DNA of 41,211 nucleotides from the IMG/VR virus record IMGVR_UViG_3300045163_000020. One strand, given 5' to 3'. The notes beneath the pieces are model-generated. The model was given only the letters and a program-made list of their open reading frames with translations, was not told the DNA's origin and did not search any database. Shown piece after piece: positions 5,610-34,645 of the stretch. The position numbers and the translations under genes are program-made. Position 1 is the first letter of the stretch. Every line of letters begins with the position of its first letter. Source of the stretch: a virus.

Positions 5610-6484
5610 CAGAACGGCCTCCTGAACTGGGGTCGGATACTCACGACGGCGGATGCGTCCGCCCCCGCATTGACGACGACGATGTCCTGGACCGACCGGG
5701 ACTCACGCGGGGCGAGCGGGAAGCGCAACCGCTGGCCACCCATCACCCGGTGAATGTCCGGCCGCTTGTCGGAGACCACGTGCCGTGCCGACCGGTCGGT
5801 GGTCAGGCGGACGGTCTCACCGTCCTCGACGTTGATGACGACGAGGGAGTCACCGTCCGGCACCTTGAACAGCGCCGGGCCGCGCAGGACCCAGTCGATG
5901 TGGGCGGGCACGTCACCGTGGTTGGCGATGCCGGCAGTGCGGTCCCACCGGCCGTCGGCCCACACGCGGCGGACCTGCAGTCCCTGCCAGAACGCCTGGC
6001 CGGCGACGACCGGGACCAAGTACGACTGCCGCTGGCGGACCTCGGCTGCGATGTCGGTCTGCTGGACCTCCGGCTTGCCGCCGAGGCGGACGTCCTTGAA
6101 CCGGACACCGCGCGGGGAGTTCACGGTCAGTCGGGAGGTGTGCCACGGGGTGAGGTCGTCGAAGAACCTGTCGCGGATCCGCTCGAAGCTGGTGGTCGGT
6201 GTGCGGTTGAGGTGCACAGGCAGGGAGAACTCCGTCTTCTGCCCCACCGCGCCCAGCCATGTCGCACCGTCAACCTGGGCGGACTCGAACCAGCGGTGGA
6301 CGATGTCCGGCTCCTCGAAGTCAGCCCAGCCGGAGGCTAGGACCGCTCCCTCGCGGTTGGCTGAGGCGGCCGACCAGTCCGACAGGTGCCACACGCGGGT
6401 CGGCAGGCCCGCCGCCATACCCGGGCCCGTCAGCGTGACGTTCGCTGACCCGCCGGGGAAGAACGAGCTGTAGTACTCGCTCAT
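5609..6484 (-). CDS. Distal tail protein (Dit-like phage tail family)
   Basis: ATG 6484 overlaps the tape-measure stop (ATGA). 291 aa, immediately downstream of TMP. Confidence 0.65.
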   Translation of the reverse strand: MSEYYSSFFPGGSANVTLTGPGMAAGLPTRVWHLSDWSAASANREGAVLASGWADFEEPDIVHRWFESAQVDGATWLGAVGQKTEFSLPVHLNRTPTTSFERIRDRFFDDLTPWHTSRLTVNSPRGVRFKDVRLGGKPEVQQTDIAAEVRQRQSYLVPVVAGQAFWQGLQVRRVWADGRWDRTAGIANHGDVPAHIDWVLRGPALFKVPDGDSLVVINVEDGETVRLTTDRSARHVVSDKRPDIHRVMGGQRLRFPLAPRESRSVQDIVVVNAGADASAVVSIRPQFRRPF

Positions 6485-9400
6485 CAGAACCCCTCCTTCC
6501 ACCGGGCTTTACGCTCGGCCATCCGAATTCCGGCAGCGACCTCCTGGCGGTCGAAGCCGTTGACATTGACGTGCGACTGGTAGGTCGGGCCGGACGCCGC
6601 CTGGGTGGCCACAGCCGCGGCCATCCGGTCGTCCCGCTTGCGCTGGTTCCCGGCGATCGTGAGCTGCAGCCCGCGTCGGCGCGCCCACGCCTGCCCCGTC
6701 GGGATCGACGAGTCATCATCGGGCAGGTAGAACTCGTCCACCGTCGGGTTGTCGCCGATCAGACGGGGCGTGTTCGGCGGGACGATGGCCGCCTGGCCCG
6801 ACGGCAGGAGCCGGAACTGTCCGCCGTCGGCGTAGCCCGCTCTCGTCGGCCAGATCGCCGACGGCCCGCCGTACTTGTAGATCGCCCAGTCGATTCCGGC
6901 GACGAGGTTCTCCAGCGGGTCGAACAGATCATCCACCAGTCCGGCGTGATGCTCGGGGAACATCTGCCGCATGGACTGCCGGGTCGGCTCGATGACCTGC
7001 AGCAGACCTCCCGACGGTGTGCCGCTCGCCGCGTTGGAGTCCCAGTTGTTCTGGATCCCCGGGTCGCCGCCGGACTCGATGTCGACCTGCTCGGTGGTCA
7101 CACCCTCCTCCCCTGCCGGACGCCCGGTGCGGGCGAGCGCGTCGAGGATGGTGGATGACCACTGAGCCGCCCCCTGCGAGGGGTCGTAGGTGTGGCTTCC
7201 GCCACCACCGCCGCCAGTGCCGCCGGAGGAGGACTCACGGAGTCCGGAGTCGGCCTCCGAGGCGGTCATGGACTGGTACGCGTCGGAGAACTTCGAGGAG
7301 TGCTGTCCGGATGCCGAGGCGGCGGACTGCATGTCCTCGTAGCTGGCGCCGGTGTTGATGCCGTAGGCGTACTTCGCTCCGGCGATGGCCGCCTGGGTCA
7401 ACGGGCCAAGATCGTCGTCGACGCCGAAGGCGGCGAAGACGTCACCGACCGCGTCGGATACCAGGGACTTCGCCACCTTCCCGGCGATGCCGGAGACCGA
7501 GGTGTCGACGTCGCCGTACTCGTCATGCCAGGCGGAGACGCGCAGAGTGTTGACGCCGCCCTTCTCCCTCGCGGCTAGCGCTGCGGTGACCAGCGCCGAG
7601 TTCTCGCCGACGCCGAAGGCATCGCCGAAGCGCTGGGTGTAGACGCCGGCCTCGAGGAGGGCGCGGACGCCGCGCGGGTCGTTCTGGTTGTCGAAGGCGG
7701 CGGCGAGCTCGTCGTCCTTCTCGTCCTGCCCGCCCTTCGCCCAGAGGAGGAAGTTGACGAGCTCGTCGTCTTCCTCGACGTGGTACCGGTCGGCGAATCG
7801 GGGGGTGAAGTCAGCTCCCCGGGTGAGGGACAGGATCCCGTCCGGGTCGTTGTCAGCGTTGAACATCGCCTGGGCGACCGGGTCAGGGCCGAGTGTCACG
7901 TTGGTCTGGACGACCTCGGGCTTCGACTCGGCGACCATCTTCCGGCGGCGTTCCTGCTCGTCGGCGGCGTTCTTCGCCGCGGAGTCGCGGGACTTCTCCT
8001 CCGGCGACTTGTCCTTGTCGTCGTCCTTGGTGCGGTCCTTCCACGCCTCGTCCTCACCGTCGAGGGGAGCCTGGGCGGCGATGTGGACGTGGTTGCGGTG
8101 CTGGGACATGGTGTCCGCGCCGTAGAAGCCCATGCCGTCGCCGACGTTGTCCCCGTTCTTCACGTTGTTGCCGAACGGGGAGTGGATCAGCTCGGCGAGC
8201 TGGTACTGGTAGCGGTCGTAGAACCACTGCGCCATGGACTGCATCTCGGGGGTGTCGTCGTAGCCGTTGGAGGCGTCGACGGCCTTCCCCTGCCCGTGGA
8301 GATCGTTGCTGTTCCGGGTCGTGGAGGTGATCGTCATCATCGGGAAGTTCTCGTTGACGAGCCCGATGATGCTGTCCACCACACCACCGGAGGCGAGCGC
8401 CTGCACACCCGGCGCGCCGCCGGCGGCGGTGGGCCGGGTGGGGGTCTTTGCTTCGAGGGCGAAGATAGCTGCCTGTGGCTGCCCCTGGTTGAGCCAGTAG
8501 TAGGCGTCGTTGTATTCGCGGCTGCTTTTGGCGTTGGCGACCCATTCTCCGCCGTCGAGCCAGGACATCGGGGTGCCGTCGGGGCTGATGCCGAGGATGC
8601 CGTCGGTGATGTGGGTGCCTGGTCCGGTGGTGGGGAGTCGGTAGCCGGTGTGGCTGGGGCCTCCCACGGCGCCGGGGGCGATGTCTCCGCCGGCAGCGTT
8701 GCGGGGGATGCGGCCGCCGGTGGCGTTTTGTCCTGCTGCCAGGCTATAGCCGAGTGGGTCGGCGAAGAAGCCTCCGGATGCGGAGTACTCCTTTCCCGCC
8801 ACCGTGTAAGTGACGGTGTGCTTGGAGTACGTGTCTCCGTTCGGGCTGTTGAGGTTGTTCTTGATGTTCGCAGCAGTTGCTGCGGAGTCGTCGGACTGGT
8901 GGTGGTTGCCGGAGGTCTGGGTGCCGTTGACGCCGTTGAGGTGGTCGACGACGTCCTGAATGTTGTCGGCGAGGTGGAAGTCACCGTTCATGTCCTTGTA
9001 GCCCATACCGAGTTCGATGAGTCGGTCTCGGACCTCGGGGTCGTTGGAGTCGATGACGACGCGACCGTCGGGGAGGGTTGTGGTCTTGATGCCGAGTTCT
9101 TCGAGGGAGGCGATGCACTCGGGGGCGTCCGGGTTGTCGATCTTGATGTAGCCGTCCTTGGTGGCGGACGCCTCGATGCCGATCTGCTTGAGGATGGCGA
9201 GGATGTCGGCGCCTTCGGGGAAGGCGATGTTCACTCGGCCGTTGATCGGCTCGGAGACTTTGGCGCCGAGTTCCTCGAGCTTGGACTTGGTGTCGTTGTA
9301 GGTGGCTTCGTCGAACTTGATGGAGACGCGGGCCTCTCCGTTCTCACCGGCGTTCTCGAGCTTGAGGTCCTGGCCGTTGAGTTCCTGCAGGATGTCCTTG

Positions 9401-11676
9401 GTCTGCTTGGCGCGCTCTTCGAGCTGGCGCATGCGGTCCTCGAACTTCTCGACCTGCTTGCCGTCGAGGTCGGCGTCGAGGTCTCCGATCGTGCCGCGGG
9501 CCTTGGCCGCCTTGCGGGCGGTCTCGTCGATGCCGCCCTGGATCTGCTCGATCTTCTCGCGGTAGCGGCCCTGCTCCATCTGGTTTCCGCCGGAGTTGGC
9601 GATGGCGTCGTCGATCTTCTCCTGTGCCCCGGCGACGCCCTCGGCGGCGTTGACGATGTCGACGTAGCTGAGGCCGAGGTTATCCATCATCTTCCGGTTG
9701 CCCTCGATGGCCATCGTGGACTCGCCGGTCTTGGCGATGTAGGCGTCGAAGGCGTCGTTGGCGGTGCGCATCGCGCCTGCGTTGCCGGTCGCCGCCTCGG
9801 CGAGGGTGTCCATGGACACGCCGGCGGCGCGGGCGGCGTCCTCGACGCCGTCGGTCTCGCGGAGCTTCTTCTCCTGGAGTTCCTTGGTCTGGGCGGTGAT
9901 CGCCCCGGTGGTCTGGTCCAGGGAGTCCCGGAGCGCGTCCTGGTGGGCCTTGTGCTCGGCCTCCTTCTGCGCGGCCTCCTCGTGCTTCTGGGCGAGGATG
10001 CCGAGGGCAGCTCCACCGACGCCGAGGGCGACGCCGAAGGGGCCGCCCATCATCGTCATCAGCCCCGACGCGCCGGACTTGAGCAGGGACATGCCGCCAC
10101 CGGCGACACCGCCAGCAACACCGCCGAGGGTCTTCATCGCGCCGCCGGCAACGGTCGTGGCCTTGTGGATGCCGGTCATGTCCTTCGCCGCCTCGCGGGC
10201 GGTCTTGCCCGCGGTGCGCATCCCGGATCCGACGCTCAGATAGGCGTCGCCCATCCGGCCGATGGTGGGGACGCGCTCCTGCATGAGGGCCATGGCGGCG
10301 GTTGTCCGGCCGATCTCCATCCCCATCGACGAGAAGTACTGCCGCTGCTCGGAGATGTCCCGCCCGAGGGTCCGCAGTGCCCCTCCCCCGGCGGACGCTG
10401 CGGATGTCAGTCCGGTCATCTTCGCCAGGGGAATCGCGGTGCCGAGGGCGAGCAGCGGCGCCGGGAGTTTCGTGACCACGCCGACGAGATCGGTGAAGAT
10501 CTTGGCCACCGGAGTCGCCGCGCTGATCAGCCCGGAGAGGGCCGAGGCCCCCATGGACGCCGCGGTCTCGATCGACGGGCCGAGCTGCTCCATGGCGTCG
10601 ACGCCGGCGTTCGCGGCGTCGGTCAGTGGCCCCTTCACCGCGTCGTAGATCTTCAGACCGAGATACTCGGCGGCGTTCTGCGCCCGCTCCAGCGCTCCGG
10701 GGAGGCCCTGGGTCTGGGCGGCCGCGACCTCTGCCGCCTGCCCGGACCGGGTGACCTGCTCCTTGAGTTTGTTGAAGCCCTCGCTACCCTGCTCCGCGCC
10801 GATTCCGGCCAAGCGCATGGCGTCAGATCCGAAGAGCACGGCGGTGGCTGCCTGGTAGGCCTCCGGTGTCATGTTCTTCTGCGCGGTCTGCAGCTGGTCG
10901 AAGAGGGCCGGCAGTCCGACGAAGTTGCCCTGCATGTCGTACACCGACAGGCCGAGTTCCTCCATGGCCGCCTGCGCGGGCTTGCCCTGGTCCGTGAGCG
11001 CCAGCAGTGCGGACTTGAGCAGCGTGCCGGCGTCAGAGCCCTGGATGCCCGCGTTGGCGAACATGGCGAGTGCCGTGGAGGTGTCCTCGATGCTGATGCC
11101 GAACTGGCTGGCTACGGTGCCGGACTGCTGAAGCCCCTGGGCAATACCGTCGATCTCCGCCGATGATGCGTTCGCAGCACCTGCGAGGATGTCGGAGACC
11201 CGGGCTGCATCGGATGCCTGCAGGGAGAAAGCCTGCAGTGCCTGCGACTGGATCGTGGCGGCGTCCGCCGCGTCGATCTGTGCCGCGGCGGCGAGCTGCA
11301 GCGTGCCCTTGGCCGCTCCCATCGACTCGTCGACGGAGAAGCCGCCCTTGGACAGCTCGACCATGGCAGCTGCGGCGTCAGAGGCGGAGGTGGCTGTGAG
11401 GTCGGTGTCATTGCCGAGTTCACGGGCCTTCGCTGCGACGGCGTCCATCTGGGATGCCGTGCCCTGGGACACCGCCGACATCTCGTTCATCTTCTTGTCG
11501 AAGTCGATGCCGATGTCCATGACGGCCTTGGCCGTGGCTCCGGCGCCGAGAGCGATGCCGAGTGCGGATCCGATCTTCGTCGCGGTTCCGAGGGCGCCGG
11601 AGAGCCCGGACTCCAGCTTTCCCGGGAACGCCTTGACGTCAGGCTCCACTCGGATGTCGATCTGGCCGCCGGCCAT
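6484..11676 (-). CDS. Tape measure protein with embedded LAS/M15-type zinc peptidase and SLT lytic transglycosylase motifs
   Basis: 1730-aa ORF with SD AGGAGG upstream. The N-terminal part is Ala/Gly-rich and helical. HGQGKAVD...HRNHVH lies near nt 8070..8340. ESGGDPGIQNNWDSNAASGTPSGGLLQV lies near nt 6930..7100. Confidence 0.95.
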   Translation of the reverse strand: MAGGQIDIRVEPDVKAFPGKLESGLSGALGTATKIGSALGIALGAGATAKAVMDIGIDFDKKMNEMSAVSQGTASQMDAVAAKARELGNDTDLTATSASDAAAAMVELSKGGFSVDESMGAAKGTLQLAAAAQIDAADAATIQSQALQAFSLQASDAARVSDILAGAANASSAEIDGIAQGLQQSGTVASQFGISIEDTSTALAMFANAGIQGSDAGTLLKSALLALTDQGKPAQAAMEELGLSVYDMQGNFVGLPALFDQLQTAQKNMTPEAYQAATAVLFGSDAMRLAGIGAEQGSEGFNKLKEQVTRSGQAAEVAAAQTQGLPGALERAQNAAEYLGLKIYDAVKGPLTDAANAGVDAMEQLGPSIETAASMGASALSGLISAATPVAKIFTDLVGVVTKLPAPLLALGTAIPLAKMTGLTSAASAGGGALRTLGRDISEQRQYFSSMGMEIGRTTAAMALMQERVPTIGRMGDAYLSVGSGMRTAGKTAREAAKDMTGIHKATTVAGGAMKTLGGVAGGVAGGGMSLLKSGASGLMTMMGGPFGVALGVGGAALGILAQKHEEAAQKEAEHKAHQDALRDSLDQTTGAITAQTKELQEKKLRETDGVEDAARAAGVSMDTLAEAATGNAGAMRTANDAFDAYIAKTGESTMAIEGNRKMMDNLGLSYVDIVNAAEGVAGAQEKIDDAIANSGGNQMEQGRYREKIEQIQGGIDETARKAAKARGTIGDLDADLDGKQVEKFEDRMRQLEERAKQTKDILQELNGQDLKLENAGENGEARVSIKFDEATYNDTKSKLEELGAKVSEPINGRVNIAFPEGADILAILKQIGIEASATKDGYIKIDNPDAPECIASLEELGIKTTTLPDGRVVIDSNDPEVRDRLIELGMGYKDMNGDFHLADNIQDVVDHLNGVNGTQTSGNHHQSDDSAATAANIKNNLNSPNGDTYSKHTVTYTVAGKEYSASGGFFADPLGYSLAAGQNATGGRIPRNAAGGDIAPGAVGGPSHTGYRLPTTGPGTHITDGILGISPDGTPMSWLDGGEWVANAKSSREYNDAYYWLNQGQPQAAIFALEAKTPTRPTAAGGAPGVQALASGGVVDSIIGLVNENFPMMTITSTTRNSNDLHGQGKAVDASNGYDDTPEMQSMAQWFYDRYQYQLAELIHSPFGNNVKNGDNVGDGMGFYGADTMSQHRNHVHIAAQAPLDGEDEAWKDRTKDDDKDKSPEEKSRDSAAKNAADEQERRRKMVAESKPEVVQTNVTLGPDPVAQAMFNADNDPDGILSLTRGADFTPRFADRYHVEEDDELVNFLLWAKGGQDEKDDELAAAFDNQNDPRGVRALLEAGVYTQRFGDAFGVGENSALVTAALAAREKGGVNTLRVSAWHDEYGDVDTSVSGIAGKVAKSLVSDAVGDVFAAFGVDDDLGPLTQAAIAGAKYAYGINTGASYEDMQSAASASGQHSSKFSDAYQSMTASEADSGLRESSSGGTGGGGGGSHTYDPSQGAAQWSSTILDALARTGRPAGEEGVTTEQVDIESGGDPGIQNNWDSNAASGTPSGGLLQVIEPTRQSMRQMFPEHHAGLVDDLFDPLENLVAGIDWAIYKYGGPSAIWPTRAGYADGGQFRLLPSGQAAIVPPNTPRLIGDNPTVDEFYLPDDDSSIPTGQAWARRRGLQLTIAGNQRKRDDRMAAAVATQAASGPTYQSHVNVNGFDRQEVAAGIRMAERKARWKEGF

Positions 11677-15821: not shown

Positions 15822-16805
15822 CTACCGAACCTTGACGTTGCGCAGCACGGCGGCCGCCTTCGTCGCCTTGAGGGCGACGGCGACCGGGCCGAGCTCGACC
15901 TCGCCGCGCTTGACCGCGCCGGAGGTAGTGAAGTCCGGCAGCCAGGAGTGCACGAGCTCACCGGTGGTGGTCGTGACTCCGTGGAAGCCGTCGAGGCCGA
16001 TGCGGACCGCGTAGAGGGACGTGGTGCCCTTCTCTGCGTCGATCGGGATGATCGGGTCGTTGGTGCCGGCCTTGTTGCCCGGGTCGACGAAGGTGACTCC
16101 GCCGTAGGACTCGCGCTCGATCGGCCGGCCGCCGGCGCCGACGAGGTCCTCGACCGGGTCCTTGGTGTACTGGCCGGCGCGGCGGGCGGCGGCGCGGACG
16201 CGGGCGAGGGTGGCCTTGTTGCCGAGGATGACGGTCGGGGTGCCGTCGAGGTTGCCGAGGAACTCGTCGATGACGTCGAGGGCCTTGTGCTCGGCCCGGG
16301 TGTCGGTGTCGAAGTCGGACCAGTCGACGGTGTCGTCGGCGCCGATCTCGGTGTCGGAGCCGAGGAGGGCCTTGTCGAGTCCGTCGAAGCCGTTGGCGTC
16401 GACGGCGGTGTCGCCGTTGATCACGGCGTCAGCGAACGCGGTGTTCGCGGCCTTGATCTTCTGGCCCATCTGCAGGGTGACCTCGTTGGAGGCTGCCGGG
16501 CCGAGGTTGGCGAGGACGCGGTCGATCTTGAACGCGCCACCGAGGACCGCGAGGTCGACGGAGAAGCGGGCGGTGGTGACGTTGGAGTCCGCGTACTCGG
16601 AGTTGATCGCGCGGAATGCAGCGTCGGCCTGGGTGACCAGGCGGCGGTAGCCGTAGGTCATCGTCGCGCCGCCCTGGGCGGGGTTGACCGCGGTGTCGAA
16701 GATCATCGCGTCGAGGAGAGAGGAGGACTTCCGGAACTCGTCGATGACGGCCGGGTCGTAGTCCTCCTGGGTGTTTAGCTTGGCGTCAGCCAGGGTGATG
16801 GCCAT
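15822..16805 (-). CDS. Major capsid protein (HK97-fold type)
   Basis: 327 aa with SD GAAAGGA upstream, following the scaffold gene. Sequence is typical of actinophage capsids (MAITLADAKLNTQEDYDPAVIDEFRK...). Confidence 0.9.
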   Translation of the reverse strand: MAITLADAKLNTQEDYDPAVIDEFRKSSSLLDAMIFDTAVNPAQGGATMTYGYRRLVTQADAAFRAINSEYADSNVTTARFSVDLAVLGGAFKIDRVLANLGPAASNEVTLQMGQKIKAANTAFADAVINGDTAVDANGFDGLDKALLGSDTEIGADDTVDWSDFDTDTRAEHKALDVIDEFLGNLDGTPTVILGNKATLARVRAAARRAGQYTKDPVEDLVGAGGRPIERESYGGVTFVDPGNKAGTNDPIIPIDAEKGTTSLYAVRIGLDGFHGVTTTTGELVHSWLPDFTTSGAVKRGEVELGPVAVALKATKAAAVLRNVKVR

Positions 16806-16829: not shown

Positions 16830-17450
16830 CTACCGGCTGGTGCCGGTGCCGTAGTGGGCGGACAGGGCGTCCGCGAGGGAGTGGTGGGTCATCGGGCCGG
16901 AAGAGCCCTTGCCCTGTGACGGATCCACCGCAGACCGGTCGAAGCCGAGGGACTCCGCCATGGCCTTGGCGTCCGCCGCGAGCTCTTCCTTCGTCTCGCC
17001 GCGGAGCCGGTCAGCCATGGCCGGCGGGAGCTTCGCCGCCGCCGCCGCTTCCGCCACGAGCTTCTCGCGGTTGAGGGCGGCGACTTTCGCCTCCGCGTCC
17101 TCGGCGCGCTTGACCGCGGAGTCCCGGTCGGCGGCGATCTTCTCCTGCTCGGTCATCTGCTCGCGCTCGTGCGCGGCGATCTTCTCCTGCAGGGCGTCAC
17201 GCTCGGCGGTGATCTTCGCCAGGAGGTCGGCAGTGCCGTCCTCGCCAGCGTCGTCACCGTCGCTGCCGTCTCCGGCGTCCTCGCCGCCGGAGGGCGGGTC
17301 GGTGCCGGAGTCCTCCCCCGAGTGATCCTCGGAGGAGGGGGCGGGGTCAGCGCCCGGCGCGCCGACGGCGGGGCTGCCGGCGTTGTCGGAGGAGTCGGGC
17401 TCGACGATGAAGCGGAGCCAGGGGCGGTGGTTTCGCAGGTTGTTGGGCAT
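16830..17450 (-). CDS. Capsid scaffolding protein
   Basis: ATG 17450 follows GGAAGGA. Acidic, Ala/Glu-rich coiled-coil protein directly upstream of the capsid gene. Confidence 0.8.
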   Translation of the reverse strand: MPNNLRNHRPWLRFIVEPDSSDNAGSPAVGAPGADPAPSSEDHSGEDSGTDPPSGGEDAGDGSDGDDAGEDGTADLLAKITAERDALQEKIAAHEREQMTEQEKIAADRDSAVKRAEDAEAKVAALNREKLVAEAAAAAKLPPAMADRLRGETKEELAADAKAMAESLGFDRSAVDPSQGKGSSGPMTHHSLADALSAHYGTGTSR

Positions 17451-17481
17451 GGTGTGGTCCTTCCTGCCCTCGTTCGGGCAT

Positions 17482-17519
17482 GAGAAAACCCCGCCCACCG
17501 CGAGGTGCGGTGTCGGGGC
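17482..17519 (-). terminator. Intrinsic terminator candidate between the small acidic ORF and the scaffold gene
   Basis: The minus strand reads ccccgacaccgc-acctc-gcggtgggcgggg followed by ttttct. Confidence 0.5.
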
Positions 17520-17539
17520 TGTGTTCGGGTTGTGTGAGG

Positions 17540-17698
17540 TTAGGCGGCGGTATCCATGTCGGAGGGCTTGAAGAACTTGAGGGCGATGTAGTCTTCACAG
17601 ACCTGTTCCGCTTCTTCCCTGGAATCACCGAGCTGGTCCATCCATGCCTGGATGAACTCTTCGCGCGTGGCGTTTCGGTTGCTGGTCGGGAAGATCAT
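17540..17698 (-). CDS. Small acidic protein (52 aa), hypothetical
   Basis: Below the ORF-track size cut-off. Manual translation gives MIFPTSNRNATREEFIQAWMDQLGDSREEAEQVCEDYIALKFFKPSDMDTAA. It starts 9 nt after the MuF stop and is followed by a terminator. Confidence 0.5.
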   Translation of the reverse strand: MIFPTSNRNATREEFIQAWMDQLGDSREEAEQVCEDYIALKFFKPSDMDTAA

Positions 17699-17707
17699 GG
17701 GTCCATT

Positions 17708-19549
17708 CTAGAGCGATTCCAGGAACTCCTTCAATGCCGGCCGCACGAACTCGTCGAAGTCGTCGTCGGGCCACTGCTGCAGGCCGTCCATCCCCTCACC
17801 TCCTCGGTGGAAGTCGATCGTGTTGACCACCTTCGGGGACTTCGATTCCGTGGCCACATACTGGGCGAAGGCTCGGGCGAACACTTCCCGGTCCTGGAGC
17901 AGGTACCGCTTGTGAATCGGGTCCGTGAGGCTCTTCTGTGGGTGGTCTTCCAGGGCTCGCACCGTCTCTGACCGCTTGATCTGGTCTAGAGCCTTCGTGT
18001 ATTTCGTACGTCCGGCTTGATCCAGGTCTCTGTCGAGCAGGTGGCCGAGTTCGTGGATGATGGTCGCTTCCTGTCCTTGGAGCGTCGGGTTGACCTCGAT
18101 GACTCTGGTGTCCAGGTTCGTTGATGCCCTCACCGTGCTTTCCTGTGCGGGGGTCCCGAAGCGGTCCTTCTTGAACAGGACGATCTCGGAGACAGGAATG
18201 CTGACGTGATCCGGCAGCACATCCCGGACCATCGTGCTGGCGCGGCTCGTTGCCTTCGCCAACTGTCCTGGTGATGTGGTGACGCGCTCACGGTAGTCCC
18301 GGGTGCCTCGGGCGTCGGCGGCCCGACTTGGCGTGGTGTCGATGACCGTCGGAGGTGACCGGTGGTTGACCCGCTGCCGCTTCTTCACCACCTCCGCCGG
18401 AGCGCCCCGGCGGATCAGTCTCTGCCCGGCGCGGGCCTTGGCTGCCTGGACTTCGGCGTCCCGCAGGCGGAGCCCGGAGAGGTTCGGGCTGGTGTCGTCG
18501 AGGTAGCCGTTGGCGTGGAGCATGGCGAGCGCCTGGTCCCGGTCGCCGCCGGCGATGCGGTAGATCTCCTCGGGCATGAGGCGGCGGCGTTGGGTCTCGC
18601 GGTAGCGGCGTCCCTGCTTGGTGAGCTTCGTGTCGTACTGCTGGCGGAGGTACTGAGAGGCCCACCCGCGTGAGGTGGTGGACTCGTAGGTGACCTTGCG
18701 GGTGGTTCCGAACCGGTCAACGGCGGAGGCCATTCCGCGGCGGGCGTTGACGACCTGCGCGGGGTCTGCGCCGTCGCGGATCGCTTCCGCCCCGGCCTTG
18801 GTGAAGATCTTGTTCTGCTGGGCTTCCGGGAGGGAGTGGAAGTACTCGCGGGTGTCGAACACCCAGCCGTCGAGGGATGGGTCGTTGTGCCGGTTGAGGT
18901 AGTCGTGGACCGGGACTGCGTCGCAGTCGCAGTTCGGGTGGCGCTTGAACGCGCCGCCGCCGTCGTAGATGCGGCCGGCGAGGATCGCGCAGCGGGAGCA
19001 GCACGGTGGGCGGACCATTCGGATCCAGCCGGCGTTGTCCCGGCTGGTGATCTGGACGCCCTTGGCGACGCGGGAGGCGTCGAGGACCGCGGTGTGGGTG
19101 GCGAGGAGCAGGGTCTGCCCAGCGCGGGCCCACAGGGCGTAGGTCTCCGGTGCGGGGAGGTCGGTGTCGAGGGCTGCGGCGACCGGGAGGCTGGCGGCGT
19201 AGGCGAGTCCGAGGTCGTCGCGTCCGGTGCCGTCGATTCCTGCGAGGGACTCGGGGGCGAGGTTGATGTCCTCGCCGCCGGTGTAGCCCTGCTCTTCGAG
19301 GAGCGGGTCGACGGTGAGGGTGGCGACGGTGGCGGCTTCGAGTTGGGCGGTGGCCACCTGGCGGTAGAAATGGTCGCCGTAGTAGCCCATCCAGACGTGC
19401 GGGTGCATGACGCCGTGGCCGGTCCACAGTTTCTTGACGGCGCGGATGGTCTCGGCGGTGATGTCGGAGCGGACGAGGGCTGCTGTCCGGGCCAGCGGGG
19501 GCATCGCGGCGATCTGCGCGGAGCGTGCCTGGTCGACTGTCGTGGCCAC
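17708..19549 (-). CDS. MuF-like (SPP1 gp7 family) minor head protein fused to a C-terminal HExxH metallopeptidase-like domain
   Basis: 613 aa. CCSRCAILAGRIY...FKRHPNCDCD matches the MuF zinc-motif pattern. The C-terminus carries IIHELGHLLD (nt 18041..18055) and a downstream REVFARAF. It lies directly after the portal gene. Confidence 0.85.
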   Translation of the reverse strand: MATTVDQARSAQIAAMPPLARTAALVRSDITAETIRAVKKLWTGHGVMHPHVWMGYYGDHFYRQVATAQLEAATVATLTVDPLLEEQGYTGGEDINLAPESLAGIDGTGRDDLGLAYAASLPVAAALDTDLPAPETYALWARAGQTLLLATHTAVLDASRVAKGVQITSRDNAGWIRMVRPPCCSRCAILAGRIYDGGGAFKRHPNCDCDAVPVHDYLNRHNDPSLDGWVFDTREYFHSLPEAQQNKIFTKAGAEAIRDGADPAQVVNARRGMASAVDRFGTTRKVTYESTTSRGWASQYLRQQYDTKLTKQGRRYRETQRRRLMPEEIYRIAGGDRDQALAMLHANGYLDDTSPNLSGLRLRDAEVQAAKARAGQRLIRRGAPAEVVKKRQRVNHRSPPTVIDTTPSRAADARGTRDYRERVTTSPGQLAKATSRASTMVRDVLPDHVSIPVSEIVLFKKDRFGTPAQESTVRASTNLDTRVIEVNPTLQGQEATIIHELGHLLDRDLDQAGRTKYTKALDQIKRSETVRALEDHPQKSLTDPIHKRYLLQDREVFARAFAQYVATESKSPKVVNTIDFHRGGEGMDGLQQWPDDDFDEFVRPALKEFLESL

Positions 19550-19553
19550 GGGG

Positions 19554-20900
19554 TCACACCCCCTTTCTCACCATCTTCGATTCGACGGGATCGGGGTCCC
19601 GTCCTGCGAGGTCGTCGGCTTCTCCGGCCATCCACGCCATCTCCTGGTCGATGCGGGGCTGGGACCATCCGATCTCGTTCATGCCGCCGCGCTGGGAGAG
19701 CACCGGCATGCCGCCGGTGAGCTTCTGGATGTAGTCGGCGCGCTGGGCGACGGTGGGGGTGCCGGGGTTGTGCCACTCGAGGCGGATCAGGCCGTCGGCG
19801 TCCCAGGCTCGGGTGCGGATCCGCTCGGCGATGCCGAGGGCCCAGGCCCATCCGGCGCCGGCGACGGTGTTGATGCGCTCGACCTGGCGGGTCAGGCGGG
19901 ATTCGTCGGCCCGGATCGCACCCTCTGCCGGCGGGTTTGCCGAGGACTGCCCCATCATCCGGACCGGCAGGCCGGTGACCGTGGACGCCTGCTCGGAGAG
20001 CATCCTGATCGTGTCGTGGAAGTTCGACAGGGACGCGGCGGGCAGCTGCGTGACCTTCGCGTTGGGGTCGGACAGTGCCCAGACGGCGCCGAGGTAGGTC
20101 TCCCAGATGTCCTTGATCGGCTTGCCGTTCTGGTCCACGAAGTCCTCGCGTTTGAGGCCGCTCGCGATCTTCTGCGGGGTGGCGATGGTCTCCATGGCGA
20201 GCTGCAGCTGCAGCATGACCCGGCCGCCCATGTCCACGAGCGGGAGGAGATCCGACATCTGGGATTCGCCTGTCCACCGTCCGGTCTGCCGCCGGTTGAG
20301 CATCATCACGACCGGGACGCGGCCGAGGTCGTGCTTGATGCGGGTGACGGCCTCCCACTTTCCGGCGTTCCGGTCGATGAGGACCGTGGAGTCCGGGAGG
20401 TAGAGGGTCATGTGCTCGGCGCGGCCGGTCTCGTCCCTGTAGAGGCGGAGAGCACCGACCATCGCGCGGGTGAGGTTGTCGACCTCGGCGGCCATGTCGC
20501 GGGGCGACTCGACCCGGATCCGCGGCCGGCCACCGGCGGGGTCGGCGGCGACGGAGACGAAGGCGCGGCCGTAGATGAGGAGGTCCTTGTGCGCGAGCTG
20601 TGCTTCGGTGTCGAGGTCGTTAGCTTCCCAGTCGTGGCGGAGCTCCTCGTCCTCCACGCCGGTGCCCTGGCGCAGGATCAGGCGGACGTCCATGCGCTCT
20701 TCGAGGACGTCGACGTAGGTTCGGCACCAGTTCAGGGGGAAGGCGAACGGCTGGACGTCCGGGGGGACGGAGATGCCGAGGTTGCCGATGTTCTGCAGGC
20801 CCCGGTAGTAGAGCCAGTTCTTGCGGTCCTTCGGCTTCTGCCGCTGGATGCGGGTGAACAGGCGGTGCATCAGCTTGGTCTCGTCCTGGGTGAGTTCCAC
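19554..20900 (-). CDS. Portal protein
   Basis: GTG 20900 lies 7 nt after GAGGAGG, which removes the spurious Arg-rich N-terminal extension of track ORF 19554..21353. 448 aa, between TerL and MuF. Confidence 0.85.
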   Translation of the reverse strand: MELTQDETKLMHRLFTRIQRQKPKDRKNWLYYRGLQNIGNLGISVPPDVQPFAFPLNWCRTYVDVLEERMDVRLILRQGTGVEDEELRHDWEANDLDTEAQLAHKDLLIYGRAFVSVAADPAGGRPRIRVESPRDMAAEVDNLTRAMVGALRLYRDETGRAEHMTLYLPDSTVLIDRNAGKWEAVTRIKHDLGRVPVVMMLNRRQTGRWTGESQMSDLLPLVDMGGRVMLQLQLAMETIATPQKIASGLKREDFVDQNGKPIKDIWETYLGAVWALSDPNAKVTQLPAASLSNFHDTIRMLSEQASTVTGLPVRMMGQSSANPPAEGAIRADESRLTRQVERINTVAGAGWAWALGIAERIRTRAWDADGLIRLEWHNPGTPTVAQRADYIQKLTGGMPVLSQRGGMNEIGWSQPRIDQEMAWMAGEADDLAGRDPDPVESKMVRKGV

Positions 20901-20914
20901 GGATTGGCCTCCTC

Positions 20915-21538
20915 TCAGGAGAACACGATGACGGTGTGGTCGACGGCCTGGCTCCAGCCCTTCGCGTGGGCGTCCATGGACGCCTCGTGCGCGAGGACCA
21001 TGGACATCGCGGGGTCGATCTTCTGGGTCTGTGACGGCTTGCCGAGGATGTACATCTGCCCCGGCTTGGCGATGCGGCGAGCGTTGGCCACCGCGAGGGC
21101 GGTCAGCGGGCAGCCGTCGTGGCTGATGCGGCCGGACGCCAGGTCCACGGTGAACCGCGACAGGGCCGCGTACATCTGCTTGATGCGGTATGTCGGCCAC
21201 TCGAGGACGTGCTCGGAGCCGTAGGCGAGCGCCCACTCCCCGATCTCCGTCCGCCAGTCCGGCGGGTCGCAGTACATCCGCTTGACCTTCCAGCGGGTGA
21301 ACGCCTCGTCGACGGCGGCGCGGACCTCGCCGCGGGGCACGGTGCCGCCCCACTCGGCCGGATTCCAGATCGCGGGGCGCCGGTCGGGCCCGTAGCGGGG
21401 GGTGAAGGCGAAGCCGTCGATGGTCTCGGCCCGCAGGGCAGTCCAGTCGTCGGAGTCCGATCCGTCGAAGCCGAGGCAGATCGCCTCGCCGTCGTCAGGG
21501 TTGCTCAGCCACTCCTGCATACGCCGCCTCCCATTCAC
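20915..21538 (-). CDS. terL: Terminase large subunit, nuclease (C-terminal) part
   Basis: ICLGFDGSDSDDWTAL...MYCDPPDW...IDPAMSMVLAHEA fits an RNaseH-like terminase nuclease pattern. It lies in the +1 frame relative to the ATPase ORF and overlaps it by 44 nt. An internal ATG 21520 is preceded by GGGAGG. Confidence 0.8.
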   Translation of the reverse strand: MNGRRRMQEWLSNPDDGEAICLGFDGSDSDDWTALRAETIDGFAFTPRYGPDRRPAIWNPAEWGGTVPRGEVRAAVDEAFTRWKVKRMYCDPPDWRTEIGEWALAYGSEHVLEWPTYRIKQMYAALSRFTVDLASGRISHDGCPLTALAVANARRIAKPGQMYILGKPSQTQKIDPAMSMVLAHEASMDAHAKGWSQAVDHTVIVFS

Positions 21539-22556
21539 TGCCGGGCAGCCAGCCGCCCTGGCCGTAGGTCACGATGTTCCCGAAGAAGCGCTTCGCCTGG
21601 TCTGGGTCACGCTTGGACAGTTCGATGGCTTCCGCTTCGACGGAGTCGAGGTCCACCCAGGGGCTGCCCTTGTACACGTACTCGAGGATTCGGCGCCGGT
21701 CCTCGGCGCTCTCCCACCGCCAGCTCTTCGGCGGGCGCTGGAAGTAGCGGTAGACATCGTCCGGTGCGGTCTCGAAGGTGGTCTGCGCGACGGACGCCTC
21801 GGCGGCGTTCCAGGCGTTCGTCGTCTCGATGGAGCGGCCGCCCATGCCGGCGAGGCCACGGCGCTGGTTGTCCGCGACCGCCATCAGCCGGTTGCTCGCG
21901 TTCCACAGCCCGGTCTCGTCCTGGAGGACGAAGGACACGGGCTGGCCGACGCGGCTGTTCGCGTTCGCGGTGACCATGTCGATGCGGTCGGCGGCGTCCC
22001 CGCCGAGATTGCCGAGGATGCGGACGAAGGTGTCGCGGTCGGCGAGAAGCCACCGCAGCGGCCCCATGGTGATCATCGAGCGCAGCGGACGGTAGGTGTT
22101 CTCCACCTGGTCCTCGCTGCTCGCTGTCATCTGGATCAGCGGCGACGGATGCCGCCGGCCTTTCGGCTCGCCGGGCAGGTACTGGTAGGTCCAGCCGCAC
22201 CGGCATCCGTTGTCCGAGCACCGGTACACCTCGCCCTCGTGCGCCCAGCCGTCGAACTCGCACGGGCCGACGGCCTGCAGGAGGACCATGGACGCCGCCC
22301 ACGGCCCCTTCCCTGTCTTCTGCGGTCCGACGACCTGCTCGCGGCGGTACCGGAATGCCTGGTTCCTCAGCGGCGTCCCGTCCCATTTCAGCCCGGCGCG
22401 GATCTCGCCGAACTTGCTGGCGACCCAGAACTGCCAGTCGGTCCAGATCAGCGGGTCACCGCGGTGGAAGCCGTCGGGGACCAGGCAGTGCGCCCGGACC
22501 CAGGCTTCCCAGAGGTCGCCGAGGGTCGGGAATTCCGCGGTCTGGTCAGCCGGCAT
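21495..22556 (-). CDS. terL: Terminase large subunit, ATPase (N-terminal) part
   Basis: 353 aa. Walker A-like VGPQKTGKG and Walker B-like SFVLQDE. Its start overlaps the TerS stop. Confidence 0.85.
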   Translation of the reverse strand: MPADQTAEFPTLGDLWEAWVRAHCLVPDGFHRGDPLIWTDWQFWVASKFGEIRAGLKWDGTPLRNQAFRYRREQVVGPQKTGKGPWAASMVLLQAVGPCEFDGWAHEGEVYRCSDNGCRCGWTYQYLPGEPKGRRHPSPLIQMTASSEDQVENTYRPLRSMITMGPLRWLLADRDTFVRILGNLGGDAADRIDMVTANANSRVGQPVSFVLQDETGLWNASNRLMAVADNQRRGLAGMGGRSIETTNAWNAAEASVAQTTFETAPDDVYRYFQRPPKSWRWESAEDRRRILEYVYKGSPWVDLDSVEAEAIELSKRDPDQAKRFFGNIVTYGQGGWLPGSEWEAAYAGVAEQP

Positions 22557-23025
22557 CGGGGACCACCTTCATCCGGCGCTTCCGCTGTTCACGGGCGGCG
22601 CCCTGGTCCTCTCCGCCGTCGTCGGTGTCGGGTTCGTCGTCGATGATCTTCCAGCCGTTCTCCCGCAGGCCTGCCGGGGACAGGCCGATGGAGTCGGCGA
22701 GCCGGTTGACCTGGGTCATCACCGAGGGTGTGGCGTCCGGCGCTTCGGACTTCACCTGCCAGCGGACGTAGTTGGCGATGGTGAGCCACCGCCAGGACTC
22801 GTCAGCCCAGGCGATGGCCTGCGGGTAGGTCCAGAGCTTCTTCCACAGGGATTTCTCCCGGACGGTGCCCTTCGGCATCGGCCAGGCCGGGGCCTTAATC
22901 GAACAGCCAGAGGCCGGGAGGAGTCGCTGAATGTCGTCCAGACCCCGCGAATCGGAGCGTTTCGACGCCGGATCGGGGGCCGGACCGGAGCGATTTCGAG
23001 CGCCGCCAGAACCCACAAAAACCAC
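22546..23025 (-). CDS. terS: Terminase small subunit
   Basis: About 155 aa immediately upstream of TerL, with AGGAGG upstream. The start may be GTG 23025 or GTG 23016. Basic C-terminus. Confidence 0.7.
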   Translation of the reverse strand: MVFVGSGGARNRSGPAPDPASKRSDSRGLDDIQRLLPASGCSIKAPAWPMPKGTVREKSLWKKLWTYPQAIAWADESWRWLTIANYVRWQVKSEAPDATPSVMTQVNRLADSIGLSPAGLRENGWKIIDDEPDTDDGGEDQGAAREQRKRRMKVVPDAG

Positions 23026-34373: not shown

Positions 34374-34645
34374 GCCGGCACCTCCGTCTGCTCGTCAACG
34401 CCGTCAAGGTCCCGGGCTTCGGGGTCGTAGGCGAGGTGTCCTCGGATGGTGGCGTCGATCTGGTCGTCGGTGACGGACTCCCCCTCGTCGCGGAGATCCA
34501 GGAGGACGTCGATGACGTCCTCGGTGTAGACCTCAGCGTCCGGGTGGAAGGCGTCGCGGATGCGGCGGTTGACGATGGCCCGCATCCAGGCGCGGTCGCC
34601 GGTGTCTTCAGCAGCGTCGAGCTCGTCGAATTCGTAGTCCCTCAT
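34370..34645 (-). CDS. Hypothetical acidic protein (91 aa)
   Basis: ORF-track entry. Second gene of the early operon. Confidence 0.6.
   Translation of the reverse strand: MRDYEFDELDAAEDTGDRAWMRAIVNRRIRDAFHPDAEVYTEDVIDVLLDLRDEGESVTDDQIDATIRGHLAYDPEARDLDGVDEQTEVPA

What the first reader, a model, noticed from the sequence alone, without database searches (positions are those of the whole stretch)
17708..19549. MuF head protein carrying a lower-GC C-terminal HExxH metallopeptidase-like domain (polyvalent or MuF-toxin-like architecture)
The N-terminal two thirds is a standard MuF/SPP1 gp7-type head protein (CSRCAILAGRIY...RHPNCDCD). The last 180 aa or so contain IIHELGHLLD plus a downstream REVFARAF, a possible third ligand and gluzincin-like. 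By rough hand counts of 60-nt lines, the DNA encoding this part (about 17708..18300) is near 57-60 percent G+C, against about 68 percent in the adjacent part of the same gene. MuF modules are known carriers of variable C-terminal effector or toxin domains that are packaged and injected (MuF polymorphic toxins, polyvalent proteins with metallopeptidase modules). This looks like such an effector rather than a capsid maturation protease, which is normally a serine enzyme.
Basis: partly seen in the sequence, partly recalled or inferred. Interest (0 to 1): 0.7.

Follow-up and report, generated by a model that had tools for sequence, protein, structure and literature searches.

The report
Phage head protein carrying swappable metallopeptidase
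A prophage head protein of the MuF type ends in a swappable zinc-protease module that arrives with its own tiny partner gene; this is a clear but not unprecedented case of phages loading exchangeable enzymes into their capsids.

Summary
ORF 17708..19549(-) encodes 613 aa. Residues 1-405 are a MuF-superfamily head protein of the VG15/MuF4 branch, not canonical PF04233. Residues 418-613 are a zincin metallopeptidase. H499, E500, H503 and E555 are invariant in 38 homologues. The AF2 model (pLDDT 86) has the helix / three-strand sheet / HExxH helix / Glu helix core. Its best matches are anthrax lethal factor (weak) and phage MuF-fusion and polyvalent proteins.

The GC dip is real: 61% against 71%, GC3 79% against 91%, p=4e-5. 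It is the lowest-GC stretch of the window.

Relatives with 80-85% identical portal and capsid proteins lack the module or carry other tails (CdiA_C, an unidentified tail). More distant relatives carry ADP-ribosyltransferase or glutamine-deamidase toxin domains. The two other-tailed close relatives examined have different small genes downstream. So this is not a maturation protease. It is a MuF polymorphic toxin/effector cassette with a probable cognate inhibitor.

The class is published (Jamet 2017; Iyer 2017). New here are this subfamily and the wide coupling of the peptidase to small acidic ORFs. Target, packaging and immunity function remain inferred.

The parts
17708..19549 (-). Whole gene, 613 aa: MuF-superfamily head protein fused to a C-terminal zincin metallopeptidase
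   Evidence: ORF listing. Identical protein P0001 occurs in about 177 JGI metagenome blocks. phrog_1522 matches residues 7-425 at E 8e-58.
18335..19549 (-). MuF-superfamily core (VG15/MuF4 type), residues 1-405, shared by all homologues
   Evidence: Pfam VG15 scores 24-25 bits against a 26-bit cutoff, and 41 of 42 relatives match VG15. AF2 model has pLDDT 87.9. BFVD gives 25 hits at E<=1e-3 to MuF-like, head morphogenesis or minor capsid proteins. The gene lies 4 nt downstream of the portal gene.
18920..19000 (-). Cys/His motif CSRC...RHPNCDC (residues 184-210); C184, C187, H204, C207 and C209 are invariant
   Evidence: Invariant columns in the 42-sequence alignment. This is the only segment that aligns to the MuF4 seed Angel gp4 (hhalign E 1.5e-4).
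18299..18502 (-). Basic linker (pI 11.7), residues 350-417, partly low-confidence in the model; contains the swap junction
   Evidence: pLDDT is below 50 at residues 356-363 and 395-400. This is the most divergent DNA segment against L001, at 51-64% identity. pI.
18335..18373 (-). Junction motif RVNHRSPPTVIDT (residues 393-405), the last segment shared with relatives that carry other tails
   Evidence: Alignment of P0001-P0006. P0003 and P0004 share RVIHRKAPATVIDT and then diverge; P0005 ends at RVIHRR.
17711..18298 (-). Zincin-like metallopeptidase module (polyvalent-protein MPTase type, ATLF/LPD1-like), residues 418-613
   Evidence: AF2 pLDDT 85.7, pTM 0.86, with topology helix, 3 strands, HExxH helix, Glu helix. 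Pfam ATLF E 2.7e-5 and LPD1 E 3.7e-4, both below threshold. PDB best match is anthrax LF, probability 0.89. BFVD top hits are MuF-fusion and polyvalent proteins, probability 1.0. 323 representative clusters match.
18041..18055 (-). HELGH (H499, E500, H503): two zinc ligands and the catalytic base
   Evidence: Invariant in 38 homologues. Coordinates verified.
17885..17887 (-). E555, the predicted third zinc ligand on the following core helix
   Evidence: Invariant in 38 homologues, within the motif Y..L...E.FA...AQ. It lies on model helix 136-151. This matches the MPTase description in PMC5512222.
17540..17698 (-). 52-aa acidic ORF (pI 4.2) starting 9 nt after the stop codon; candidate cognate inhibitor or immunity protein
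   Evidence: Coding signature GC3 0.79 > GC1 0.54 > GC2 0.38. Called by JGI and Logan pipelines. jackhmmer against 7,680 ORFs gives 25 hits, all in the same slot downstream of this module. Absent next to the tail-less MuF, and replaced by other small genes next to other tails. No Pfam or PHROG family.
17460..18300 (-). Low-GC cassette that is highly conserved against L001: module, small ORF and spacer
   Evidence: GC 59.9%, the lowest in the window. DNA identity to L001 is mostly 0.8-0.92 here (0.73-0.92 over the whole block, 0.87-0.92 from about 17950 to 17460), against about 0.73 in the core and 0.73-0.80 at the start of the scaffold gene.
19554..20903 (-). Portal gene (context)
   Evidence: phrog_104, E 4e-114.
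16830..17450 (-). Scaffolding protein gene (context), ATG at 17450
   Evidence: phrog_1793 and phrog_233.
15822..16805 (-). Major capsid protein gene (context)
   Evidence: phrog_212, E 3e-72.

Best explanation
This is a MuF polymorphic toxin/effector cassette in a temperate actinobacterial phage.

The N-terminal 405 residues are a MuF-superfamily minor head protein of the VG15/MuF4 branch, encoded directly after the portal gene. By analogy with SPP1 gp7, this part should anchor the protein inside the capsid at the portal in a few copies.

A basic, flexible linker connects it to a 196-residue zincin metallopeptidase with ligands H499, H503 and E555 and catalytic base E500. This peptidase sits in the slot where relatives carry tRNase, ADP-ribosyltransferase or deamidase toxins.

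The peptidase, the 52-aa acidic gene that follows it and the spacer form one laterally exchanged block.

Proposed mechanism. The fusion is packaged into the head and leaves it with the DNA. The peptidase then cleaves one or more cytoplasmic proteins of the newly infected cell, either an essential protein or a defence protein. The small acidic protein binds and blocks the peptidase in the producing cell or lysogen.

Shown here: domain identities, catalytic-residue conservation, polymorphism of the slot, dispensability for head assembly, and co-inheritance with the small ORF.

Inferred: packaging, ejection, proteolytic activity, the substrate, and the inhibitor role of the small ORF.
For: - Architecture and motifs.
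- Catalytic residues H499, E500, H503 and E555 are invariant across 38 sequences whose modules are as little as 32% identical to the window's.
- Confident zincin-core model. Fold matches to anthrax LF and IrrE and to phage 'head morphogenesis domain', polyvalent and N4 vRNAP proteins.
- The N-terminal fold matches MuF-like proteins, and the gene follows the portal gene.
- Slot polymorphism: about 55 of 120 homologues have no tail, 38 have this module, and others carry CdiA_C, Gln_amidase or ADPrib_exo_Tox above Pfam cutoffs.
- Dispensability: L004 (no tail) and L005 (other tail) have portal proteins 84%/80% identical and capsid proteins 85%/85% identical to the window's.
- Small-ORF linkage: 25 of 25 jackhmmer hits lie in the downstream slot. 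There is no small ORF after the tail-less MuF, and different overlapping ORFs follow the CdiA_C and unknown tails.
- Cassette edges are visible in DNA identity and in GC.
- The same module, each time with a small and mostly acidic ORF after it, ends Phage_Mu_F, Phage_min_cap2 and VG15 carriers in many phyla.
[quoted passage not shown] MPTase is the main hub domain of polyvalent proteins and is linked to MuF (PMC5512222). MuF-toxin/immunity pairs have been validated for the Apk2 toxin (PMC12226406).
- The element is temperate: integrase and antirepressor.
Against: - No experiment shows packaging or ejection of any MuF-fused peptidase, and none was found in the searched literature.
- All Pfam peptidase hits are below gathering thresholds, and all PDB fold hits have E>0.01 and TM below 0.4. 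The assignment therefore rests on the motif, the topology and the BFVD matches.
- The small ORF has no known family. Its families downstream of different module subfamilies could not be shown to be homologous (hhalign probability 18-32%). It could be a chaperone or have an unrelated role.
- The module is about 10 GC points below the core in relatives of different GC as well. Part of the dip may therefore be intrinsic (amino-acid composition, weak codon adaptation) rather than a sign of recent transfer.
- A peptidase could act on the fusion protein itself rather than on host proteins.
Confidence: 0.65

Rival explanations
1. Self-processing ('releasing') peptidase. The zincin domain cuts its own polypeptide in the basic linker, inside the procapsid or after ejection, or trims another packaged protein. 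Iyer et al. proposed this for P1 DdrB and other polyvalent proteins. On this view there is no host target.
For: Iyer et al. propose autoproteolysis for MPTase domains of packaged proteins (PMC5512222). Zhang et al. note that metallopeptidases in polymorphic toxins are often releasing peptidases (PMC3482391). A long basic, low-confidence linker lies between the two domains.
Against: There is no further effector domain to release; the peptidase is the only cargo. It occupies exactly the slot held by terminal toxin domains in relatives. A tightly coupled small acidic ORF is more easily explained as an inhibitor of a dangerous activity.
Confidence: 0.15
2. Capsid maturation (prohead) protease, as homologues are labelled in PHROGs and in many SEA-PHAGES records. 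The domain would digest the scaffold or trim the capsid protein during head maturation.
For: phrog_1522 and phrog_193 are named 'head maturation protease'. Many phage homologues are annotated 'capsid maturation protease'. No separate prohead protease gene is present between portal and capsid.
Against: Those PHROG hits cover only the MuF core (residues 7-425), not the peptidase. Relatives with 84% identical portal and 85% identical capsid proteins end at residue ~397 with no peptidase (P0005/L004), or carry a CdiA_C (P0004/L006) or an unidentified tail (P0003/L005) instead. The module has been exchanged laterally together with a small ORF. SPP1-type heads with a separate scaffold do not need a protease (established knowledge).
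Confidence: 0.03
3. Inter-bacterial toxin released at lysis. The fusion, free or virion-borne, mainly harms non-lysogenic competitors, and the small ORF protects lysogens through prophage-expressed immunity. This is the same molecule with a different ecological role.
For: Jamet et al. discuss MuF toxins as weapons of lysogens (PMC5576092). The element is temperate. The cassette has the toxin-immunity layout.
Against: The small ORF lies in the late structural operon between the MuF and scaffold genes, with no obvious promoter of its own examined, so expression in lysogens is uncertain. A cytoplasm-acting peptidase would still need virion-mediated entry.
Confidence: 0.12
4. Catalytically irrelevant structural or DNA-binding domain that only retains a zincin-like shape.
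For: All family hits are below threshold. The N4 vRNAP MPTase region is needed for encapsidation rather than for known proteolysis (PMC5512222).
Against: Invariance of H, E, H and the distal E, plus flanking motif residues, across modules only 32-38% identical to the window's is the signature of a maintained active site.
Confidence: 0.05

Closest known systems
MuF polymorphic toxins of temperate phages (Jamet et al. 2017, PMC5576092); validated examples are EFV ADP-ribosyltransferase and Apk2 (p)ppApp synthetase with IapK/Aph1 immunity (PMC12226406)
   Same: MuF-superfamily N-terminus encoded right after the portal gene. Variable C-terminal enzymatic domain of at least 100 aa. Small ORF immediately downstream. 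Temperate element. Jamet et al. report metallopeptidase tails in 20% of MuF toxins.
   Different: The carrier is the actinobacterial VG15/MuF4 branch, whereas MuF toxins were described as vastly over-represented in Firmicutes. No metallopeptidase MuF toxin has been characterised experimentally in the literature I could search. The partner ORF (52 aa, pI 4.2) belongs to no described immunity family.
Zincin-like MPTase of phage and plasmid polyvalent proteins, with LPD1 (Iyer et al. 2017, PMC5512222; Pfam PF18796)
   Same: Same core: N-terminal helix, 3-stranded sheet, HExxH helix and a Glu on the next core helix. The exhaustive search and BFVD find the module inside 1,000-3,154-aa proteins with LPD1, ATLF, ADPRT and GNAT domains.
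   Different: Here it is a minimal two-domain protein, not a giant multi-effector. Which of the 12 published MPTase clades it belongs to was not determined.
Anthrax lethal factor catalytic domain (Pfam ATLF PF07737, MEROPS M34; Tox-ALF metallopeptidase of Zhang et al. 2012)
   Same: Best Pfam peptidase hit and best PDB fold hit. HExxH with a downstream Glu ligand.
   Different: 24 bits against a 27.4-bit cutoff. Foldseek E 1.3e-2, TM 0.36, and only the ~80-residue core aligns. No LF substrate-recognition domains are present. This is superfamily-level resemblance only.
SPP1 gp7 / phage Mu gpF (Pfam Phage_Mu_F PF04233)
   Same: Position after the portal gene, fold-level similarity, and an H-P-x-C-x-C-type motif.
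   Different: No PF04233 hit in any of 42 family members. hhalign to a true PF04233 protein is negative. gp7 and gpF lack a peptidase tail.
SEA-PHAGES 'capsid maturation protease and MuF-like fusion protein' / PHROG 1522 'head maturation protease'
   Same: Homologous N-terminal core. Same genome position.
   Different: The label implies a morphogenetic protease. Here the peptidase is an optional, swappable module, and the PHROG match covers only the MuF core.
T4 Alt and other virion-packaged, injected enzymes
   Same: The concept of an enzyme carried in the head and delivered with the DNA.
   Different: Unrelated proteins and a different packaging signal. The analogy is functional only.

Membership tests
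MuF superfamily (sensu Jamet 2017: MuF1-4) | Gene immediately downstream of the portal gene in the head module | tested here: met
   Portal 19554..20903 (phrog_104, E 4e-114). The gene starts 4 nt downstream, and scaffold and capsid genes follow.
MuF superfamily (sensu Jamet 2017: MuF1-4) | Homology to a MuF family profile (MuF4 seed = mycobacteriophage Angel gp4) | tested here: met
   Angel gp4 matches Pfam VG15 at E 5e-32. The window protein scores 24-25 bits on VG15 against a 26-bit cutoff, and 41 of 42 relatives match VG15. hhalign of family A2 against Angel gp4 gives E 1.5e-4, probability 51%, over the Cys motif only. This is marginal by sequence.
MuF superfamily (sensu Jamet 2017: MuF1-4) | MuF-like fold | tested here: met
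   AF2 model pLDDT 87.9. It gives 25 BFVD hits at E<=1e-3, all probability 1.0, to MuF-like minor capsid, head morphogenesis domain and minor capsid protein 2 models. TM-scores are modest, 0.3-0.6.
Pfam Phage_Mu_F (PF04233; SPP1 gp7 / Mu gpF, 'standard MuF') | Match to the PF04233 profile | tested here: not met
   No hit at E<=1 for the protein, and none at E<=0.01 in 42 relatives. hhalign against the PF04233-bearing protein P0133 gives probability 0.2%.
MuF polymorphic toxin | C-terminal extension of at least 100 aa that varies among proteins sharing the MuF core and includes known toxin domains | tested here: met
   Tails of 180-290 aa. CdiA_C, Gln_amidase and ADPrib_exo_Tox are above gathering thresholds in relatives, and about 55 of 120 relatives have no tail.
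MuF polymorphic toxin | Small ORF (putative immunity) immediately downstream, specific to the tail type | tested here: met
   52-aa ORF 17540..17698. Homologues are found only downstream of this module (25 of 25 hits). It is absent or different next to other tails.
MuF polymorphic toxin | Toxicity of the C-terminal domain and neutralisation by the downstream protein | not testable with these tools
   Needs expression assays.
MuF polymorphic toxin | Encoded by a temperate phage or prophage | tested here: met
   Tyrosine integrase 36246..37631 and AntA/KilAC antirepressor 33615..34373. The identical gene is on 50-200 kb contigs in 70 metagenome blocks.
Zincin (gluzincin-type) metallopeptidase / polyvalent-protein MPTase | HExxH on a helix plus a Glu third ligand on the following core helix, both conserved | tested here: met
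   H499, E500, H503 and E555 are invariant in 38 sequences. They lie on model helices 76-90 and 136-151.
Zincin (gluzincin-type) metallopeptidase / polyvalent-protein MPTase | Core fold: N-terminal helix, 3-stranded sheet, two active-site helices | tested here: met
   DSSP of the model: H10-27, E38-41, E58-61, E66-69, H76-90 ... H136-151. This matches the description in PMC5512222. The three best BFVD hits (E<=1e-4, TMq 0.5-0.67) are 'phage head morphogenesis domain' (MuF-fusion) proteins; polyvalent proteins follow at E about 1e-2.
Zincin (gluzincin-type) metallopeptidase / polyvalent-protein MPTase | Zn binding and proteolytic activity | not testable with these tools
   Biochemistry required.
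Pfam ATLF (PF07737, anthrax lethal factor M34) | Score above the gathering threshold; LF-like domain organisation | tested here: not met
   24.4 bits against 27.4. Foldseek to LF gives E 1.3e-2, TMq 0.36. This is superfamily-level similarity only.
Pfam LPD1 (PF18796) | Score above the gathering threshold | tested here: not met
   20.9 bits against 27, covering only profile positions 7-37 of 78. More distant homologues of the module do pass (P0122 67.8 bits, P0137 48.4 bits).
Capsid maturation (prohead) protease | Required and conserved in phages sharing the same head module | tested here: not met
   Absent from L004 and replaced in L005 and L006, although L004 and L005 have portal and capsid proteins 80-85% identical to the window's.

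The most novel reading that the evidence does not exclude
The zincin module and a small, mostly acidic protein encoded right after it may form an obligate two-gene unit (peptidase plus cognate inhibitor, or peptidase plus delivery chaperone).

This unit appears to have been grafted repeatedly onto at least three of the four MuF branches (Phage_Mu_F, Phage_min_cap2, VG15), and it also exists as a standalone pair, across many bacterial phyla.

If so, virion-delivered zincin peptidases would be a widespread class of phage weapon dangerous enough to need dedicated immunity. The small-ORF families (none in Pfam or PHROGs) would be a new class of proteinaceous zincin inhibitors.
Probability: 0.35. 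Interest if true: 0.55.

Novelty: new member of a known kind. Interest (0 to 1): 0.38.

Why it matters
It adds a clean, well-delimited actinobacterial example to the MuF polymorphic toxin class, with exact cassette edges, a recombination junction motif and a candidate cognate inhibitor.

It shows that the widespread database label 'head/capsid maturation protease' for these proteins is misleading.

No MuF-fused metallopeptidase has been studied experimentally. Its substrate, whether a host defence or an essential protein, is unknown.

The peptidase/small-ORF pair gives a compact system of 196 aa plus 52 aa for testing whether phage-delivered zincins are toxins, anti-defence effectors or self-processing enzymes.

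The comparative data also suggest that Pfam LPD1 is the C-terminal half of the polyvalent MPTase rather than a separate domain.

Tried and rejected
- The search for homologous proteins with the C-terminal 196 aa alone returned nothing, although the identical protein is in the collection. I took this as a word-index limitation. It was replaced by the exhaustive representative search and local phmmer.
- megablast of the region and tblastn of the module against 50,697 phage records gave no match. The module subfamily is absent from sequenced isolate phages at that sensitivity.
- Sequence search of the PDB gave only chance hits.
- The look-up of encoding contigs for P0008 found no record.
- A search of Jamet's supplementary tables for the metallopeptidase domain names found nothing in the held text.
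- hhalign of the carrier family against a PF04233 protein was negative, so I rejected 'standard MuF'.
- hhalign of the module against the different HExxH tail of Gordonia phage Nyceirae gp8 gave probability 2.6%, so it is not demonstrably the same module.
- Attempts to unite the small-ORF families A-D by jackhmmer and hhalign were inconclusive (probabilities 18%, 32%, below 2%).
- Pfam and PHROG scans of the small ORFs found no family.
- The capsid maturation protease reading was rejected on comparative grounds.
- No tRNA genes are present in the window.
Full report
**1. Observation**

The ORF 17708..19549(-) exists, starts with GTG and encodes 613 aa. An identical protein (P0001) is called on about 177 JGI metagenome blocks, 70 of them with contigs of 50-200 kb.

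The compositional break is real.
- Codons 1-420 are 70.6% GC with GC3 90.5%. Codons 421-612 are 61.1% GC with GC3 79.2%.
- Split at the junction, GC3 is 369/405 for the core against 163/207 for the module, Fisher p=3.9e-5. The module lies below the minimum GC3 (82.5%) of 21 other genes.
- The segment 17540-18300 (59.9% GC) is the lowest-GC 760-nt stretch in the whole window.
- The dip does not stop at the stop codon. It runs on to about 17460.

**2. The N-terminal carrier**

PHROGs match residues 7-425 to phrog_1522 at E 8e-58. The closest isolate-phage homologues are Arthrobacter, Gordonia and Streptomyces phage gene products 4-8. They are about 35% identical and are labelled 'MuF-like minor capsid protein', 'capsid maturation protease' or 'hypothetical protein'.

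By sequence this is not canonical Phage_Mu_F.
- PF04233 is not hit by the protein or by any of 42 relatives, whereas 41 of 42 match VG15, PF25310.
- hhalign to a genuine PF04233 protein is negative.
- Jamet et al. defined an actinobacterial MuF4 family seeded on mycobacteriophage Angel gp4 and linked it to PF04233 by HMM-HMM comparison (PMC5576092).
- Angel gp4 matches VG15 at E 5e-32, so VG15 is essentially MuF4. Family alignment A2 aligns to Angel gp4 over the CxxC...HxxCxC segment at E 1.5e-4.

The AF2 model of residues 1-400 (pLDDT 87.9) finds 25 BFVD models at E<=1e-3. All are MuF-like, head-morphogenesis or minor-capsid proteins, and several are toxin fusions (ADP-ribosyltransferase-MuF, 'CDI toxin-like').

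The gene lies 4 nt after the portal gene and before the scaffold and capsid genes. The carrier is therefore a MuF-superfamily head protein of the VG15/MuF4 branch.

**3. The C-terminal module**

Pfam gives only sub-threshold hits: ATLF 24.4 bits, LPD1 20.9 bits, M78.

Thirty-eight of the 120 best homologues carry the same module. In them H499, E500, G502, H503 and E555 are invariant, as are Q491-G-Q-E494, Y549, F557, A558, A562, Q563, H581, R582 and W593. In the representative set, the modules are 32-38% identical to the window's, apart from P0002 at 89%.

The AF2 model (pLDDT 85.7, pTM 0.86) has a helix, a three-stranded sheet, the HExxH helix and a later helix carrying E555. This is the zincin MPTase core as described by Iyer et al. 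(PMC5512222).

- PDB fold search: anthrax lethal factor (probability 0.89, E 1.3e-2), IrrE/PprI and minigluzincins, all weak.
- BFVD: the three best matches (E<=1e-4, TMq 0.5-0.67) are 'phage head morphogenesis domain' proteins of 618-1,186 aa. Further such proteins, 'large polyvalent protein associated domain' proteins, N4-like virion RNAP and PolyVal ADP-ribosyltransferase follow at E>=2e-3.
- An exhaustive profile-free search finds 323 representative clusters at E<=1e-3. Lengths suggest three settings: the C-terminal end of 450-600-aa proteins, 170-260-aa proteins with room for little else, and 1,000-3,154-aa proteins. Of the nine I scanned, the giant ones carry LPD1, ATLF, ADPRT and GNAT domains.
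- Ten distant carriers were scanned. Six have Phage_Mu_F, two Phage_min_cap2 and one VG15. The module has therefore been joined to three branches of the MuF superfamily.

**4. Polymorphism and dispensability**

The shared core ends at query residues about 350-405. About 55 of 120 homologues stop there. The rest carry tails of 180-290 aa. Some tails are CdiA_C, Gln_amidase (papain-fold toxin) or ADPrib_exo_Tox above Pfam cutoffs.

The closest carriers (P0003-P0006, 64-68% identical to the window's core) have an unidentified tail, a CdiA_C tail or no tail. They diverge right after the motif RVxHR..P.TVIDT, residues 393-405.

Their phages have portal proteins 80-84% identical and capsid proteins 85% identical to the window's. 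The peptidase is therefore not needed to build this head. That excludes the 'maturation protease' reading propagated in PHROGs and GenBank.

**5. The cassette and its partner gene**

Nine nt after the stop codon begins a 52-aa ORF, 17540..17698(-), with pI 4.2 and a coding-type GC pattern (GC3 0.79 > GC1 0.54 > GC2 0.38).

- P0002's contig has a 96% identical ORF in the same place.
- P0012's contigs, and the 22 IMG/VR loci L035-L056 whose modules are 34-37% identical to the window's, have a recognisable homologue: QSYMD.MGWSRERAEE against QAWMDQLGDSREEAEQ.
- jackhmmer from the window ORF against all 7,680 ORFs of 114 loci gives 25 hits, every one in that slot.
- The tail-less relative goes straight to the scaffold gene after 88 nt. 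The CdiA_C and unknown-tail relatives are followed by different, overlapping 111-aa and 102-aa genes.
- DNA identity between the window and L001 is about 73% over the core and drops to 51-64% in the linker. It is then mostly 80-92% across the module, small ORF and spacer (87-92% from about 17950 to 17460), and falls back at the scaffold start.

So the module, the small ORF and the spacer form one exchanged block that coincides with the low-GC patch.

The module is also about 10 GC points below its core in L001 and L002, phages of different GC. The dip is thus partly an intrinsic property of the cassette and not only a mark of very recent transfer.

**6. Wider pattern**

I examined about 100 loci from many phyla.
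- The module nearly always ends its ORF, usually with 20 or fewer residues after the match and at most about 60.
- It is nearly always followed by an ORF, usually of 50-90 aa, that overlaps or abuts the stop codon (offsets mostly between -21 and +13).
- Most of these ORFs have pI 4.1-5.
- They fall into several families, each confined to that slot.
- Profile-profile links between families are weak (18-32%), so common ancestry is unproven. None is in Pfam.

**7. Mechanism**

Shown here: a MuF-type head protein; a conserved zincin active site; a swappable toxin slot; independence from head assembly; a co-inherited small acidic partner; a temperate host element with integrase and antirepressor.

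Inferred from SPP1 gp7 biology and the MuF-toxin hypothesis (PMC5576092; PMC5512222): the fusion is packaged at the portal, exits with the DNA and cleaves cytoplasmic protein(s) of the infected cell. The small protein would inhibit it in the producer or lysogen.

Rivals are autoprocessing, a lysis-released competition toxin, a structural role and a maturation protease. The last is contradicted by the comparative data.

**8. Novelty**

The class is published. Jamet et al. found metallopeptidase tails in 20% of 191 MuF toxins and small downstream ORFs in 89%. Iyer et al. made MPTase the main hub domain of polyvalent proteins and linked it to MuF.

This locus is a new member of that class. It has a VG15/MuF4 carrier in an actinobacterial prophage, a module subfamily without a Pfam model, and a partner-ORF family not yet described.

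No experimental work on a MuF-fused peptidase turned up. Interest is moderate.

Noticed in passing
window 20915..21538(-) and 21495..22556(-): The large terminase is encoded as two overlapping ORFs: a 353-aa ATPase (phrog_19179) and a 207-aa nuclease (phrog_21277), overlapping by 44 nt. The same split is present in all relatives examined (L002, L004-L006, L116). It is therefore conserved (a true split or a programmed frameshift) and not a sequencing error.
   Followed up: partly
L115 (Mycobacterium phage Angel NC_012788) 6189..6395: The 68-aa gp5 overlaps the end of the 929-aa MuF4 protein gp4 and sits in the 'immunity' slot. It matches Pfam RMF (ribosome modulation factor) at E 2e-10, above the gathering threshold. 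This is an unexpected identity for a gene in that position.
   Followed up: no
window 17885..17911 region (residues 547-577), and proteins P0122, P0137: Pfam LPD1 (PF18796) aligns to the helix that carries the third zinc ligand, E555. In the giant polyvalent protein P0137 the ATLF and LPD1 hits overlap (869-967 against 935-968). LPD1 appears to be the C-terminal half of the MPTase and not an independent domain of unknown function.
   Followed up: partly
window 18335..18373(-): The motif RVNHRSPPTVIDT is conserved in the closest carriers, whatever tail follows it. It marks the exact point where tails diverge, so it may be a recombination or demarcation motif analogous to VENN in CdiA.
   Followed up: partly
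window 33615..37631: Lysogeny module: AntA/KilAC antirepressor (33615..34373, -), an ImmA/IrrE-like M78 protein just below the Pfam threshold (35440..35964, +; a second, unrelated candidate metallopeptidase), a 127-aa ORF, and a tyrosine integrase (36246..37631, +).
   Followed up: partly
window 39008..40453(-): A 481-aa protein with GH19 chitinase-like and Peptidase_C39_2 domains, resembling an endolysin. It lies beyond the integrase, so the prophage boundary or gene order relative to the window is unclear.
   Followed up: no
window 22546..23025(-): A 159-aa ORF directly upstream of TerL, where a small terminase would be expected, matches phrog_226, which is labelled 'minor tail protein'. This is probably a mislabelled family.
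   Followed up: no
window 8690..9506 and 34454..35654: These are the only other stretches where 760-nt windows fall to 62% GC or less. The first is inside the 1,730-aa tape-measure gene, and the second is in the lysogeny region.
   Followed up: no
L010, L019, L020, L027 (Deinococcus/Deinococcota genomes): Standalone 209-215-aa versions of the peptidase are followed by a distinct, longer partner family of 123-133 aa that occurs only in that slot.
   Followed up: partly
P0099 (Gordonia phage Nyceirae gp8, 581 aa): This isolate-phage homologue of the carrier has a different C-terminal tail with its own HEYGH ... EWVAEGYA motifs. It is annotated 'capsid maturation protease'. It is not demonstrably homologous to the window's module (hhalign probability 2.6%) and may be a second kind of MuF-borne zincin.
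   Followed up: partly
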